This document shows, piece by piece, positions 20,998-55,665 of a stretch of DNA of 64,000 bases (its first letter is position 1; every line of letters starts with the position of its first letter). Made by a program: the position numbers and the translations under genes. The DNA is from Sarea resinae (lineage: Eukaryota), in NCBI GenBank assembly GCA_026026165.1, contig JAPEUD010000004.1, positions 124,001 through 188,000 of the forward strand, read 5' to 3'. The notes below the pieces were generated by a model. It was given only the letters and a program-made list of their open reading frames with translations. It had not been told where the DNA came from and ran no database searches.

Positions 20998-21555
20998 TTT
21001 AGCGAGATGACTAAGCTCCTGCCTGATGCATTTGCAGGCTCAGTCAGTGAAATGGGCATTCATTTAGAAGACGATGGCAGTGGATTTATTTGATTTATTC
21101 TGGAGAATCAATTGAATTAATAATGATGAAATCTTACAGCATCAGTCGAAATGATTGGGGAAGTAATGTTCTGATGACCGCCGTTCTCGGTCTACACCAC
21201 ACTCAAACGTGTGCTGAGAGTCGCCATCGAACAAGACCCTAGACTACGCATTTGCCCAGGCAATTTTTGAGAACGCATATGTCCATCGCGAAAGCAACCG
21301 ATCTCGCCCTGACGAGAGTTGGACAGAACCTACGAGTCCTGGACCCGCCGATATGACACAGATTGCGTAACGTGGTTTTGGTTCCCTCCGACCACAGAGA
21401 TCTCGAGATGATAATAATGAATCGGAGAACCGTCAAATTTAGGTCATAGCGCTTGAATTCTAAGCGTACAAAGCATCTGACCACGAAATAGTTTGCCAGT
21501 GAACCTCCACCCACGCCGTTTCTTTTCTCCTTCGCAACTATTCTCGAATCCCAAT

Positions 21556-22201
21556 CTATGCCGCAGCGCGAACCTTTGCGAACGATTTTCGGACCTCGAA
21601 ACGTGCCTATGTTAAAAACAACAATGTCAGTAACCTTTCCTCTGATCTGCAAGTCCTTGTTCTGGGCCTGATGGCAGCACCAAACGCCTCGGCGCGCAAA
21701 ATGCCGATAGCCAGCCACTCGAAAGAATAAGGTAAAACCTACCTGCTTCCTCAACTTCATGACCTTGAATCTCTCGAAGTCGGTCAACTTCCGTCTCCGT
21801 TGCTTCAGGTCTCTGGTCTTCGCCCACGAACTCGACTCCCACTTCTTCTCAACCTCGGCCTTTTCCCATGCCTTCCTCGTAGGTCCGTTTCCTGCAGCGC
21901 GGGGGAGCTTGTCGATGACAATCGGGGTGAGGACAACGTTCGAAAGAGCAGCGGAGTGACGCGGGACGACGGCCTCCTCCTTGGAAGCTGGACCGTCAAC
22001 GAGGACCTATGGGAATCTGTAAGTGCTTGCTAGAGGAGGATTTTCGGACTGCTGCCAATGTTGCTGAAGACGTACGCGCTTGTGGTCGATGATCTCGACA
22101 ATGGCAGCGAGCTTGCCGTCGAACTTGCCGCCCTTGAAAAGGACGACACGGCCGACCTCGACCAGTCTCCACTGGGATGCTTTGATGTCGGCGTCACCCA
22201 T
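21556..22201 (-). CDS. RPL14: 60S ribosomal protein L14 (eL14)
   Basis: [59 protein letters not shown]; two coding introns. Confidence 0.97.
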
Positions 22202-22720
22202 CGCGTCAGAGAATCTGTGGCGGACGATTAATTCTGTGTTCTTCTGGTGATGACCGGTCGAAAAGTTGTTACTGACCACTTCGATTATCTGGGGTGGTGA
22301 GGGGTTAGTTGTCGTCGTTGTCAGTTTGCTGGATGATTGACGTTACGATATTGAAGCCCTCGAATCGTGAGGTTCTGCCCTTGCGCTAAGCCGAAGCGAG
22401 GCGATTTGTGGGTGCGACTGCTATTTTCCAGGTCCTAGGGCTCGTCAATCATTCTGTTTTCATCATGTGATCATACAGTCACGGGATATGTTTAGTTGCA
22501 TTAGCTAAGCAGCATTCGCGACCTACCTAGTACCTTAGACGAGCCAAACATAAGGTGGACTTCGACTATCTTTCTTTTCCTACCTCACCTAATGAATATT
22601 TTCCTCGAGCTTGGAGGTCCGAACCCACAACTGCTATTGCATTCATGAGGCCCAGCATCACTAATGTCATATGATAGTGAGTACTACTCTTCTTGCTTCA
22701 GGCCCTCATCCTCGCATTCT

Positions 22721-22830
22721 CTCAAATGATGCTATAATTTGCGATTGACCTCGGCGCCCGTGAAACTCTCGCCGGAGTTTCTAGACGGACCTGGGGAGGT
22801 GATATTCACTTCTTACATATTCTGACTTCT
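22721..22830 (+). ncRNA. snR87: Intronic box C/D snoRNA, snR87/U16(SNORD16)-like, predicted 18S Am436-equivalent guide
   Basis: C-like box ATGATGC 22726-22732, guide TAATTTGCG complementary to conserved 18S CGCAAAUUA, D box CTGA 22822-22825; inside an intron GTGAGT(22677)..GCTAAC(22886)..AG. Confidence 0.8.
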
Positions 22831-23007
22831 CAACCAACAAATACATCTGTCCTGGCGTTCTTCCTCTGGCAGAAAGATCAAGATTGCTAACAGCGTCAAG
22901 TCTGATACAGAAACCCATGCTCATGTGCCGGGCAAGGCAATGTCTTCAACTGCTTTATGCTAACTGGTAAGCCTCTTCTCTCCTTCTTTCCACCTGCCAC
23001 TTTTCCT

Positions 23008-23098
23008 TGTCCGATGATTATAAAACATCACGCACTAGATAGTAAGTGATCTCTTCGGAGAGCTGATCATACCTGATACACCAAGATCACTGAGGACA
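23008..23098 (+). ncRNA. Intronic box C/D snoRNA, U24-like, predicted LSU Cm1437-equivalent guide
   Basis: Terminal stem TGTCC/GGACA, C-like box GATGATT 23013-23019, internal C(TTCG)G hairpin, guide CACCAAGATC just before D box CTGA 23090-23093; inside intron GTAAGC(22967)..ACTAAT..TAG(23168). Confidence 0.82.
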
Positions 23099-23633
23099 TC
23101 ATATGCATACATCATATTTCAAGCAATTCAGAAATTGTCATCATGTACTAATCATCTGTTTGCTTTAGATCCGTTCTAGGTGGAAGTTCGATTCCCGGTC
23201 GCTAGTAATTTAATTTGCTACTTGCCCCCTGTTTGTTTACATACCTGAACTTTGGTTCCATGCTTGGAGCGCGCATACTGAGTGTGCTATTCGTCTCGTC
23301 GAGCTGTAATCAAAACAATGACAAATTTTTCTATCCTATGGTCCCACCTTTTCAAGCTGCGGGCAGACACTAGTTTGCTGAGGGTTGACTACCGCAGTAT
23401 GTAAACATTGTGAATAGGAAAAAGCATACAAGTATTAGTTATTCGTATTTATTAACTTCATATTCCTGCAAGGAGCATTGAGATCCAGTATATCTGCTAC
23501 TTCGAAATATTCCATGCTGGATTAATCTTACTGTGGGAGCATTTCCTGGCTCATCGTAGTTCCATAGCAAATAGCACATCTTTCCGAGTTCGCCAGGTGT
23601 GAACAGATGAAGGATCTTCGCAAGCAACCGAAA

Positions 23634-24758
23634 TCAAGTCGCCGAGACGTCCGCGTTCGAAGATGGCGAAGCTAGCTTCCGTGACTGCCTGCTTTGATGG
23701 ACCCTCATTTCTTCTTTTAATTTCTCTCGCAGCCAGGTGCCGATATTCTGAGAGCCATCTTCATTCTTCGCCGCCCACGCCCAGAGCATGCTATCTCCTG
23801 CGTCGATAGTCGAGCGGAAATGATAAATAAGCATCTGCACAATTCTCCTGTCGCACCCGGCCTCGAGAACAGCCAGTCTCATTAGTGACGGCGCGCTCGC
23901 AAAGTCGAAATCATCGAGTAATATGAGGTCTCCCACAGTGTCTGCCCTACCCTCACGTATAGCATCTTCCAGCCCCTCTAACATCACCTCGCTGGCCGTC
24001 GTGTTTTCGAGATCTACCGTAGCTCCTCCTTGCACAAGTATCGAAAGAAATGTGACTTTATCGTCCGTCCAAGGACCGTGAAGCAGTTTTTCCGGAACAC
24101 AGCATCGAATGTAATATTCCTCATCGTTGACGGGAACGTGGCATACAGGCCAGTATGGCAACTCTGGCTCAGGATCAAAATAATACCCCGGATCATAATA
24201 ACATCCTGAATCATAATAAACTCCTGTCGTTGTTCTTCCTTGAGCTCTGGCTACTCTTTCCTCGTACAGCTGACCACATTTTCGGAGTAAGTCCCGGGTC
24301 ATCCATTTACACTGAAGAATTCTGGTCTGTAGATCTGTCCTAAGATAAATCTCGTCCAGGTCCCAGTCAACATCCTCTAGCCTCCCGGGAAATGCAAACA
24401 GCAAGAGCTTGATATAGAGATGTTCACTTGACAGTCTCGAAGCGAGGTGAGGTGACGCGAGTGGGAGGTCGAGATTGAGGGCGTGGAAAAAGATATCATG
24501 CAGCAACTCAGTCGGCAGCTGTTCGAGCAGAGACAGCCGAGGTTGGCGTCTTCGACGCTTTGGGGCGGAAGATTGAGATCGAGAAGTACGTGTAGTCGTA
24601 GAGCTCGAAGGTGTGTTCGAACGAGAGGTTTTGGTGGAGGGTGGTAAAGAGACTGTGAGAGAGCGCTCTTCAGAGTGTGAGGATTGAGATGGAGATTGAG
24701 GAATCCTGTCGTCCTTGCGTTTCCGCTTGCCCCGGACTCGAATTGGTGTGAGTGACAT
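23634..24758 (-). CDS. Hypothetical protein with basic NLS-like N-terminus and F-box-like segment
   Basis: Intronless 374-aa ORF; RVRGKRKRK, PKRRRR, LLEQLPTELLHDIFFHALNLDLPLASPHL. Confidence 0.75.
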   Translation of the reverse strand: MSLTPIRVRGKRKRKDDRIPQSPSQSSHSEERSLTVSLPPSTKTSRSNTPSSSTTTRTSRSQSSAPKRRRRQPRLSLLEQLPTELLHDIFFHALNLDLPLASPHLASRLSSEHLYIKLLLFAFPGRLEDVDWDLDEIYLRTDLQTRILQCKWMTRDLLRKCGQLYEERVARAQGRTTTGVYYDSGCYYDPGYYFDPEPELPYWPVCHVPVNDEEYYIRCCVPEKLLHGPWTDDKVTFLSILVQGGATVDLENTTASEVMLEGLEDAIREGRADTVGDLILLDDFDFASAPSLMRLAVLEAGCDRRIVQMLIYHFRSTIDAGDSMLWAWAAKNEDGSQNIGTWLREKLKEEMRVHQSRQSRKLASPSSNADVSAT

Positions 24759-26884
24759 GATATTTACAGACGATTGGACGGACTGAGATCATCTGCAAGA
24801 GGGTGAATGGCAAGATGAAGAGGCGGATTGAACCGGATTGAAGGTATGATGAGATGAGACGATCTGTGAGGGACGACGGTATGTAGTGGAATGAAAGAAA
24901 AGGAAGGTGATCAGGAACAAATGGACTAAGAGAGGTGCAAGACCTTGGGCACGCCTCCTCAAAAGAGATTCGGCGTGCGAGGATTGAGTTCAATTCATTT
25001 TGGGGAAATATTGTCAAGTGCAAACCCTCTCAATACTCACGAACATCGTGAAATTTACTTATCGAGTACCTCAGGTAAGGTAAGGTACTTTATCGAGTGA
25101 AGACCAGTGGTAACCGAAAGAGGTATGGCGCCTGATTTTCTTCAAGAGCAAAAGTGGCGTTTGCGGACGGATCAGCAGGTCAAGCCACAGCAGTACTCCG
25201 GAGTATAGCATCCATAGCACAGCCACAGCCCGTCTTAGCTGTCCGAGCAAGTCAAAAATAGAGTTTTCAGATGGCGCTTTTCCCTGAAGTCCCCTTTCGC
25301 AGCTGTCCAATTGGAATCATGCCCACGGCTTTCGCGCAAACGAATAATTGCACGGCTGATCAGGACTGTAGCCACCATTAGATGCGGTCGAATTGGTACC
25401 TTAGCTATGCTGGAAATCAATGAGCCCGGGTGCACAGTCTCTGGTGGGGAAATGACAGGATGTTTATGTCTTCTTTCCTGAGAGGAAAGCTGGTAGAACC
25501 GGCTTCGAAAACCGGTAACAGCTGCGACAGGACAGTGACAGGGTGGGCATCCCAAGACGACAGTAAAGTCGACCAACGGCAGGAAAATGGCATTCCTGAT
25601 CATCAGGATGACATGCAATTTCCGCACCCTGCGCATCATGTCTCACGAACCCCTGACGTCACACATCACCCACCGGCGATCGACTGGGTGGGGCCTCCAG
25701 TTGGAAAGCGCGAACCTGGCTGGCCTAGGTACCTTCCGGTGTAGTCGGACTACCGAACCGAACGAGGCAAAGGAGCAAGACAAGCTCGAGGAAGCGAAGA
25801 GAAGCGGCATTGGCATCCTTCTGCTCAGCGCAGATCGCGAGATACGAGGCCAGATTAGGATGGTGTGGAGAGGGGCTGGGCGGAAACGGGCCAGCAGTAA
25901 TGTCATCGTTCGTTCAGACGTTCAGAAACCCTCACAGCGACAGAGGATTCGAGAGGACTCGGCGCTCTGCACGCGCCACAGACTAAGGTACTGATATCAA
26001 CTGCCAACGTCCGGGCCCGCCAATGGCCTCTCAGACTCGACGCATTCCCTGAGAAAGCGCGCCACAGCTGTGGCGTTCTCCGCATCAACTCACCCCATCG
26101 CTACCGGAACAAGGAATGCGCCCACATAAAGTTCAGGGTTCGCTGCATCAATCCATTCAATCCATCCAGGTTCAGGGGGCGAGGTCGATAAATGGCTTGT
26201 CCAAGTTTTTGCCCACCCTTTCACGTCAAGCATCTTCAGTGCCCAAAGCGGATGGAGAGGCGTCCCCTTCATCGCAGTGGCCCCACCAATAAGGTCCTTG
26301 CCCGGGCCTGCTGTGCAGCGCGCCATGATGCAACCGGTGTCATTTTCTGGTCTCGCATGTATGGAATTAGCAGCAGTTGATCCTTTTTAGCCGTATTCTG
26401 CGCCTTAGCAGCTCGATTAGCATGAGAACGGCAGCGGCCCCCAGCAACGTACTAAGGCAGTGACAGGCATATGACTTCATCCCTCATATCCCCATGGTGC
26501 ATCATACCTTGATCGATCGGTTTGTTTCTGACTTGCGACACGAGAAGGGGTTGTACGGTGTCGAGCCAGTGGAGGTAGGATTCCCGTCAGGCTGGCTGAC
26601 TGACTGACGCAAATGCCAGTGAATGTTATGACTCGTAGCACACCCAGCCCCATTCATTATAAGTAGACACCCGTGTCCTCCCTCCCCGACGTCGCTCCCT
26701 CTCTTCTTCTGCAAGCAACAAAGCACATAAGCAATTCACGCCCCTTCCACTTACATACATAAATACGCCCAACGACTTTCCAACCGTCTCGTCTTCTGAT
26801 CATCATCGAAGACAACTAAGCAAAGGTCGACTTCAAAACCAACAAAACTCCCCAAACAAAACCACAACACAAACCTCATTCGAA

Positions 26885-55586: not shown

Positions 55587-55665
55587 GGCAAGATGGCCGA
55601 GTGGTTAAGGCGCTGGATCCAGGTTCCAGTGGGAAACCGCGTGGGTTCGAGTCCCACTCTTGTCA
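55587..55665 (+). tRNA. tRNA-Leu(CAG), intronless, with C at position 33
   Basis: Acceptor GGCAAGA/TCTTGTC+A73; D arm GCC GAGTGGTTAA GGC; anticodon stem CTGGA/TCCAG with loop TC-CAG-GT; variable arm TGG GAAA CCG; T arm GTGGG TTCGAGT CCCAC; T runs from 55671. Confidence 0.93.

What the first reader, a model, noticed from the sequence alone, without database searches (positions are those of the whole stretch)
22590..23230. Hidden non-coding spliced host gene carrying two intronic C/D snoRNAs
This ORF-free gap has two well-formed introns (22677 to about 22900/22910, and 22967-23168), each holding one box C/D snoRNA about 55-60 nt upstream of the branch point. The exons lack a credible ORF. Seen: splice signals, boxes, guides. 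Established: filamentous fungi use non-coding intronic snoRNA hosts. Inference: this is a snR87 + U24-like host that protein-centred annotation would miss.
Basis: partly seen in the sequence, partly recalled or inferred. Interest (0 to 1): 0.75.

Follow-up and report, generated by a model that had tools for sequence, protein, structure and literature searches.

The report
Conserved two-intron snoRNA host gene
Beside a ribosomal-protein gene lies a short non-coding gene whose two introns each release a small RNA that guides chemical marks onto ribosomal RNA; the arrangement is old and already described in fission yeast, and the one less familiar detail is that the second RNA seems to have taken over the job of a separate yeast guide RNA.

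Summary
Confirmed, and mostly known. Introns 22677-22900/22910 and 22967-23168 each hold a box C/D snoRNA, 60 and 53 nt upstream of the branch point.

snoRNA 1 is Rfam Afu_514 (77.9 bits), equal to N. crassa CD10 and snR87. Its guides pair with this genome's 18S (yeast Am436 site) and 25S (14 bp).

One RNA contig lacks exactly the 202 nt of intron 2. The exons are unconserved and have no ORF over 37 codons. 43 of 55 related snR87 loci carry U24 downstream, and 29 of 31 testable ones face RPL14 head-to-head.

S. pombe cluster VI (snR85 + U24, intronic, non-coding host; PMC4138321) is the published counterpart. This scan already noted both the host and the double guide on other genomes. I did not find the snR65-type guide on U24 in print, but one key supplement was unreadable. 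Methylation is predicted, not shown.

The parts
22076..22201 (-). RPL14 (eL14) first coding exon; the gene is divergent from the host
   Evidence: Pfam Ribosomal_L14e E 3.8e-29 on exon 21744-22006 and a weak KOW hit on this exon; intron 22007-22075 seen as a joint in both runs
22202..22676 (.). Shared spacer: RPL14 5' UTR, probable bidirectional promoter and host exon 1 (start site not mapped)
   Evidence: Head-to-head geometry in 29 of 31 related loci; the promoter is inferred; Homol-D-like words at 22413 and 22476 are not enriched in relatives
22677..22910 (+). Intron 1 (GTGAGT; branch point 22886-22891; acceptor AAG 22900 or CAG 22910)
   Evidence: donor and branch point kept at fixed distance in 43 and 41 of 44 loci; no spliced junction seen for it
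22722..22827 (+). snoRNA 1 = snR87 / Afu_514 / Nc CD10 / S. pombe snR85; C box 22726, D' TTGA 22745, C' about 22800, D CTGA 22822
   Evidence: Rfam RF01515 77.9 bits; sequences in supplements
22735..22743 (+). snoRNA 1 D' guide to 18S A434 (yeast Am436)
   Evidence: 9/0 bp with own 18S; register checked against yeast Cm414 and Am420
22808..22821 (+). snoRNA 1 D guide to a 25S U (N. crassa Um1039 in Liu, 25S-1042 in Canzler)
   Evidence: 14/0 bp with own 25S; published prediction
22911..22966 (+). Exon 2, non-coding (starts at 22901 if the AAG acceptor is used)
   Evidence: No blastn or tblastx hit in 116 related loci; length 30-518 nt and phases 17/19/15 in 51 loci
22967..23168 (+). Intron 2 (GTAAGC; branch point 23147-23152; TAG), 202 nt
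   Evidence: RNA contig joint 22966 to 23174 with 5 letters between, a net loss of 202 nt
23009..23097 (+). snoRNA 2: U24 paralogue with two guides; 4-bp terminal stem, C box 23014, D' GTGA 23046, UUCG stem-loop 23050-23061, C' 23063, D CTGA 23090
   Evidence: Alignment of 43 copies; all 4 terminal-stem pairs show changes on both sides
23035..23044 (+). snoRNA 2 D' guide to 25S U2347 (yeast numbering; the snR65 site)
   Evidence: 10/0 bp with own 25S, D'+5 lands on that U; register fits yeast Cm2337, Psi2340, Psi2349, Psi2351; kept in 52 of 56 related copies
23079..23088 (+). snoRNA 2 D guide to 25S C1437 (the U24 site)
   Evidence: 10/0 bp with own 25S; register fits Am1449 and Gm1450
23169..23333 (+). 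Exon 3, non-coding; 3' end not mapped (an RNA contig reaches 23333)
   Evidence: record 7; 23169-23450 has no hit in 116 related loci

Best explanation
A short RNA polymerase II transcript starts in the spacer it shares with RPL14 and runs the other way. The spliceosome removes its two introns. The lariats are debranched and trimmed, and box C/D proteins protect two snoRNAs. These guide fibrillarin to four rRNA riboses by the D/D'+5 rule: 18S A436 and a Pezizomycotina 25S U (snoRNA 1), and 25S C1437 and 25S U2347 (snoRNA 2). The spliced exons have no product. The locus is the orthologue of S. pombe cluster VI. The ancestral U24 functions are split: this copy keeps C1437, a second gene (G000:C136, L067) keeps the A1449 guide, and this copy's D' guide now addresses the snR65 site. 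Shown here: sequence features, complementarity, conservation, one spliced contig for intron 2. Inferred: Pol II start, shared promoter, lariat processing, intron 1 splicing, all four methylations in this species.
For: Rfam Afu_514 at 77.9 bits. Four guides, each the best box-adjacent duplex among own rRNA, U2, U6 and 48 tRNA genes, each with one perfect site in rRNA. Intron 2 removed exactly in an RNA contig. Snoring-free control: branch points at fixed distance in 40 of 44 loci against 6 and 1 antisense. Only the two snoRNAs are conserved: 100 and 71 of 116 loci hit, against 0 of 116 for exons, intron flanks and spacer. U24 guide downstream in 43 of 55 distinct related snR87 loci (window removed). 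RPL14 divergent in 29 of 31 loci with U24 and 0 of 10 without. Afu-514 cloned 74 times at 105 nt beside AFUA_6G03830 = ribosomal protein L14. S. pombe snR85 and U24 are both intronic in cluster VI, whose transcripts are described as non-coding with start site and poly(A). No separate snR65 found in this genome.
Against: Splicing evidence is one low-depth contig (2.88) from a metatranscriptome, with 2 of 5 letters after the joint differing from the genome. No joint for intron 1 was shown; 18 joints were hidden. No small-RNA reads. snoRNA 2 is below all Rfam cut-offs. 4 of 56 related copies lack the D' guide. 12 of 55 related snR87 loci have no U24 nearby, so the cluster is not universal. Folding z-scores are not significant (-0.41, -1.43). 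No conserved promoter motif supports co-regulation with RPL14 (Homol-D core 8 of 26 against 5.1 shuffled). Related loci include near-identical strains, so the counts are not independent events.
Confidence: 0.9

Rival explanations
1. The host is real, but snoRNA 2 is a single-guide U24. The conserved 23035-23044 word is an accessory pairing or structural element and does not direct methylation of U2347.
For: The duplex is only 10 bp. The snR65 Rfam model does not hit it. D' is GTGA, not CTGA. A paper argues that most non-canonical eukaryotic C'/D' motifs do not bind Snu13 (PMC8413462 passages). Lost in 4 of 56 copies. No modification map for these fungi was found.
Against: The word sits exactly 1 nt before an NNGA box in all 53 copies that have it, and D'+5 lands on a nucleotide known to be methylated in yeast. 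Its target is about 900 nt from C1437 in yeast numbering, not beside it. No other candidate snR65 lies in the genome: 9 pattern hits, only this one with a C box.
Confidence: 0.15
2. Nested (stwintron-like) introns: each snoRNA intron sits inside an outer intron, whose branch points are the motifs at 22660 and 22959 just before the two donors.
For: Both donors in the window have a branch-point-like word within 20 nt upstream, and removing intron 2 would bring GCTAAC near TAG 23179. Nested and recursive splicing is described in fungal snoRNA clusters (PMC5033589, PMC3596301 passages).
Against: The motif is present in only 6 of 43 and 4 of 42 loci. No good outer donor was found. The one spliced contig keeps 22959-22966 and 23174-23179.
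Confidence: 0.04
3. The exons encode a short peptide, or form the spliced 5' UTR of a downstream gene.
For: A 37-codon ATG ORF lies in exon 3. In S. pombe, intronic snoRNAs also lie in UTR introns of coding genes.
Against: No exon conservation by blastn or tblastx in 116 loci, and exon 2 phases are even. The next long ORF (23634-24788) is on the opposite strand.
Confidence: 0.04
4. The two snoRNAs are transcribed separately or are exonic, and intron 1's signals are chance.
For: No intron 1 joint was shown; by my arithmetic the contig keeps 22906-22910. N. crassa U24 (CD50) is listed as intergenic.
Against: Donor and branch point flank snoRNA 1 at fixed distances in 43 and 41 of 44 loci. Keeping 22906-22910 also fits the AAG acceptor at 22900. 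Nc CD10 and S. pombe snR85 are both listed as intronic.
Confidence: 0.04

Closest known systems
S. pombe snoRNA cluster VI (snR85 + U24), Diao et al. 2014, PMC4138321
   Same: Two intronic C/D snoRNAs in a non-coding polycistronic host. snR85 has the same box C-proximal guide and D' as snoRNA 1. U24 has the same D guide (Cm1471 there). 5' RACE primers lie in snR85, which suggests the same order (my inference).
   Different: S. pombe U24 keeps a U24b-type D' guide (25S A1486); here D' addresses the snR65 site. S. pombe snR85 lacks the 25S D guide and was listed without a target. Whether cluster VI is next to rpl14 I could not check.
snR87 / Afu_514 (RF01515) / N. crassa CD10 (Canzler CD_10)
   Same: Rfam hit above gathering; the 18S-436 D' target and the Pezizomycotina 25S D target both match PMC5824354.
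   Different: Nothing of substance. The passages I saw list it as orphan and intergenic (A. fumigatus) or intronic (N. crassa), with no mention of a U24 partner.
U24 / snR24 / SNORD24 (RF00069); N. crassa CD50 and CD51
   Same: Guide for 25S C1437 next to box D, as in S. pombe U24. The U24 functions are split over two genes, as in S. pombe and N. crassa.
   Different: Only 24.6 bits against a gathering score of 41. The A1449/G1450 guide is absent and sits on L067. Nc CD50 carries the C1418 guide at D' and is listed as intergenic.
S. cerevisiae snR65 (RF01204)
   Same: Same predicted target nucleotide, 25S U2347.
   Different: No match to the Rfam model. It is one guide on a U24 body, so it works like snR65 without being shown to descend from it.
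UHG/gas5-type non-coding snoRNA hosts; N. crassa clusters I-V
   Same: One snoRNA per intron, short unconserved exons, no ORF.
   Different: A different snoRNA pair; not named among the clusters in the text I read (the cluster figure is not available).

Membership tests
Box C/D guide snoRNA (both RNAs) | Terminal C and D boxes, internal D'/C' | tested here: met
   snoRNA 2's C box is the variant ATGATT, kept in most of 43 aligned copies
Box C/D guide snoRNA (both RNAs) | 9-21 bp complementarity to rRNA ending 0-1 nt before D or D' | tested here: met
   9, 14, 10 and 10 bp with own rRNA; shuffle rates
Box C/D guide snoRNA (both RNAs) | Stable small RNA bound by fibrillarin that directs 2'-O-methylation | not testable with these tools
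   Only contigs were available; the A. fumigatus orthologue of snoRNA 1 was cloned
snR87 / Afu_514 / CD_10 | Rfam score above gathering | tested here: met
   RF01515 77.9 against 39; RF01216 snR87 itself only 19 against 37
snR87 / Afu_514 / CD_10 | D' guide to 18S A436 and Pezizomycotina D guide to 25S | tested here: met
U24 / SNORD24 | Rfam RF00069 score above gathering | tested here: not met
   24.6 against 41; no hit in 7 related loci that carry it
U24 / SNORD24 | D guide to 25S C1437 | tested here: met
   10/0 bp, register checked
U24 / SNORD24 | D' guide to 25S A1449/G1450 (yeast U24) | tested here: not met
   Absent from snoRNA 2; present on a separate locus L067. S. pombe and N. crassa also split it
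snR65 | Guide to 25S U2347 | tested here: met
snR65 | Sequence match to RF01204 | tested here: not met
   Not among hits to E 10; no hit over the cut-off in the genome, 60 of 1894 candidates scored
Non-coding intronic snoRNA host (UHG type) | snoRNAs inside spliced introns at a set distance from the branch point | tested here: met
   intron 2 spliced in one contig; intron 1 junction not seen
Non-coding intronic snoRNA host (UHG type) | Exons without a conserved ORF | tested here: met
Non-coding intronic snoRNA host (UHG type) | One capped, polyadenylated transcript covering both introns | not testable with these tools
   No raw reads; start and end not mapped
S. pombe cluster VI orthologue | Same two snoRNA families, both intronic, in one host | tested here: met
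S. pombe cluster VI orthologue | Shared flanking genes | not testable with these tools
   No S. pombe genome on hand; the paper's cluster figures are pictures or unreadable

The most novel reading that the evidence does not exclude
In a large part of the filamentous ascomycetes, after U24 split into two genes, the C1437-guiding copy replaced its idle D' guide with one for 25S U2347. It so became the missing snR65 of these fungi: an unrecorded guide swap, invisible to Rfam, held in an snR87-U24 host that has stayed head-to-head with RPL14 on one shared promoter, and was broken up in a group whose snR87 resembles that of Neurospora.
Probability: 0.4. Interest if true: 0.4.

Novelty: new member of a known kind. 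Interest (0 to 1): 0.27.

Why it matters
Mainly for annotation and snoRNA evolution. It supplies a gene model that protein-based pipelines miss and a snoRNA that Rfam does not call. It extends S. pombe cluster VI to filamentous fungi. It predicts which RNA methylates 25S U2347 in these fungi, a site where Um and pseudouridine guides are reported to compete in yeast (PMC5699541). One small deletion, possible in a model such as Aspergillus if its orthologue is confirmed, should remove two defined methylations. It does not open a new kind of system.

Tried and rejected
Nested or stwintron architecture: rejected, motif in 6 of 43 and 4 of 42 loci.

tRNA or snRNA target for snoRNA 2, prompted by a weak SNORD97 hit (E 4): no box-adjacent duplex better than the rRNA ones among U2, spliced U6 and 48 of 52 tRNA genes. 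U1, U4, U5 and 5S were not scanned. The tRNA part used some wrong orientations and was redone.

Homol-D co-regulation: not enriched, 8 of 26 against 5.1.

Canzler's double-guide family CD_35 (AM921920) as a match for snoRNA 2: it is Afu-191, with 5.8S and U2 targets.

One search used 23169 as the end of intron 2, one base too far; the ORF test was redone. The pattern was mistyped and found nothing; corrected.

RNA folding gave no significant z-score, and RNAalifold recovered only the terminal stem.

Run X2 (share 0.06) gave no cover of the host; not used as evidence.

C. thermophilum modification paper: no usable site list in the passages or the supplement search. T. rubrum supplements: no guide words found. 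Canzler's supplement could not be read.

Full report
Observation. The stretch lies between RPL14 (minus strand, ATG at 22201; Pfam Ribosomal_L14e) and an unrelated minus-strand ORF ending at 23634. Intron 1 runs from GTGAGT 22677 through branch point GCTAAC 22886 to AAG 22900 or CAG 22910. Intron 2 runs from GTAAGC 22967 through ACTAAT 23147 to TAG 23168. Box D to branch point is 60 and 53 nt. Rfam over the whole window gave two hits at gathering: a tRNA, and Afu_514 at 22722-22827 with 77.9 bits. The second RNA, 23009-23097, gave only SNORD24 at 24.6 bits, E 0.34, and SNORD97 at E 4.

Targets. I fetched this genome's rRNA, U2, U6 and 48 of 52 tRNA genes and scanned for duplexes ending at a D or D' box. 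snoRNA 1 pairs 9/0 with 18S (D'+5 = A434) and 14/0 with 25S (a U). snoRNA 2 pairs 10/0 at D with 25S (a C) and 10/0 at D' (GTGA 23046) with another 25S site (a U). Yeast numbers were fixed by register against the yeast modification table (PMC5699541, passages). A434 fits Am436 with Cm414 and Am420. The C fits Cm1437 with Am1449 and Gm1450. The U fits 2347 with Cm2337, Psi2340, Psi2349 and Psi2351. That table assigns 436 to snR87, 1437 to U24 and 2347 to snR65/snR9. Shuffled guides found a perfect rRNA match in 3.0%, 0.005%, 0.45% and 0.75% of 20,000 trials. The short guides therefore need the conservation evidence below.

Relatives. After collapsing identical snoRNA 1 copies and keeping loci with at least 700 nt downstream, 44 of 56 had the U24 guide plus box D within 1200 nt; that is 43 of 55 without the window. 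Of 57 snoRNA 2 copies picked by the D guide, 53 had the D' guide followed by one base and an NNGA box; 52 of 56 without the window. In 43 aligned copies all 4 terminal-stem pairs showed changes on both sides. With at least 1500 nt upstream as well, RPL14 was divergent in 29 of 31 loci with U24 and 0 of 10 without. The 12 loci without U24 show a donor and branch point around snR87 in the printout and resemble N. crassa CD10 near box C; that likeness is judged by eye. Among 44 loci, window included, donors lay before box C in 43 and 42, and branch points 42-72 nt after box D in 40 and 40, against 6 and 1 on the antisense strand. Only the snoRNAs are conserved: blastn hit 100 and 71 of 116 loci, and none for exons, intron flanks or spacer. 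Exon 2 was 30-518 nt with phases 17/19/15 in 51 loci. Many loci are near-identical strains, so these are not independent events, and their taxa are unknown to me.

Expression. Two runs held part of the region, both as contigs. In X1, a metatranscriptome, one 226-nt contig of depth 2.88 matches 23174-23333 with no difference and joins 22966 to 23174 with 5 letters between. The net loss is 202 nt, exactly intron 2; two of the five letters differ from the genome. Record length and bin depths imply that its other piece is 22906-22966. That fits either the AAG acceptor at 22900 or an unspliced intron 1; this is my arithmetic, and the piece was not listed. No intron 1 joint was shown, and 18 joints were hidden. 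Contigs cannot show mature small RNAs.

Own genome. Five hits of the U24 guide pattern and nine of the U2347 guide pattern exist; by inspection only this locus has the C/D context. RF01204 (snR65) has no hit over its cut-off, with 60 of 1894 candidates scored. A separate C/D-like locus with the A1449 guide lies at G000:C136 (L067). So U24's two jobs are split, as Liu et al. describe for N. crassa and S. pombe.

Mechanism. Most likely a Pol II transcript from the spacer shared with RPL14 is spliced twice, and the lariats are debranched and trimmed to two snoRNPs that methylate four riboses. The processing route is established knowledge (PMC5033589 passage, and recall), not tested here. The shared promoter is inferred from geometry only: Homol-D cores were in 8 of 26 spacers against 5.1 shuffled, and Diao et al. 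found Homol-D co-regulation only in fission yeasts. Rivals, with their odds, are listed separately; the main one is that the D' word does not guide methylation.

What is known. Joechl 2008 (PMC2377427; passages with Table 1): Afu-514, 74 clones, 105 nt, orphan, between Afu6g03830 and Afu6g03840. AFUA_6G03830 is ribosomal protein L14 (PMC6529585, one passage). Liu 2009 (PMC2780460; parts 1-4 of 6, supplement 1 whole, passages of supplement 4): CD10 is the same RNA and intronic; CD50 and CD51 are U24 and U24b; no snR65 is listed. Canzler 2018 (PMC5824354; outline, section 25, passages): snR87 = CD_10 with both targets; the main text has no 'U24', 'snR24', 'snR65' or '2347'; its supplement could not be read and may hold the double guide. 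Diao 2014 (PMC4138321; sections 6 and 8, passages, supplements 5 and 6 whole, passages of 2 and 8, files 3 and 9 unreadable): S. pombe cluster VI holds intronic U24 and intronic snR85, whose guide equals snoRNA 1's, and the clusters are described as non-coding polycistronic transcripts. Also seen, in passages only: PMC5033589, PMC3596301, PMC8413462, PMC3890542, PMC12723226, PMC5389607. Searches for the snR65-type guide on U24 (listings, plus the reads named) found no report of it; the library lacks most subscription papers.

Earlier notes of this scan, looked up after I had reached these readings, describe the same host and the same double guide on other genomes. They are unchecked AI notes and are not counted as evidence.

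Verdict. Real and well supported; a new member of a known kind. The host has a published counterpart and snoRNA 1 is a curated family. The residual interest is the probable takeover of the snR65 site by U24 and the stable linkage to RPL14. Interest 0.27; novel case probability 0.4, interest 0.4 if true.

Noticed in passing
window 21123-21174 (+): A third C/D-like motif pair (ATGATGA ... CTGA, 52 nt) between the NAC-alpha gene and RPL14, with a 9-bp 25S match next to box D. No Rfam support (best E 5.5), no hit in 116 related loci, no clear intron. An X1 contig covers 21120-21258 with 11 differences. Unresolved, probably chance.
   Followed up: partly
L067, G000:C136:54318: A separate U24b-like C/D snoRNA with the 25S A1449 guide and what looks like a decayed C1437 guide before box D; no Rfam hit at gathering.
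   Followed up: partly
L035:1501-1760 (G000:C72:136273 on): The U6 snRNA gene carries three spliceosomal-type introns; removing them leaves 104 nt. Introns in fungal U6 are known (recalled).
   Followed up: partly
G000:C72:231703-235078 (L002, L004): The 25S gene takes 3376 nt to cover model positions 24-1888, so it holds about 1500 nt of insertions, probably group I introns.
   Followed up: no
window 21606-21743 (-): RPL14 has a second intron and a short last exon near 21555-21605, seen as split pieces in run X2 and conserved in 10 related loci.
   Followed up: partly
window 55587-55665 (+): tRNA-Leu(CAG) gene without intron.
   Followed up: no
PMC4138321 supplement 5, S. pombe snR64: S. pombe snR64 holds a word complementary to the same 25S stretch as the U2347 guide, but not at D+5 spacing; probably an accessory pairing element (by eye).
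   Followed up: no
PMC3890542 Table 2, TRnc_3438: A T. rubrum small RNA annotated as SNORD97 may be a mislabelled orthologue of snoRNA 2, since snoRNA 2 hits SNORD97 weakly. Its sequence was not seen.
   Followed up: no
window 23634-24788 (-): A 384-codon stop-to-stop ORF with a low-complexity N-terminal part and no Pfam hit, converging on the host's 3' end.
   Followed up: no
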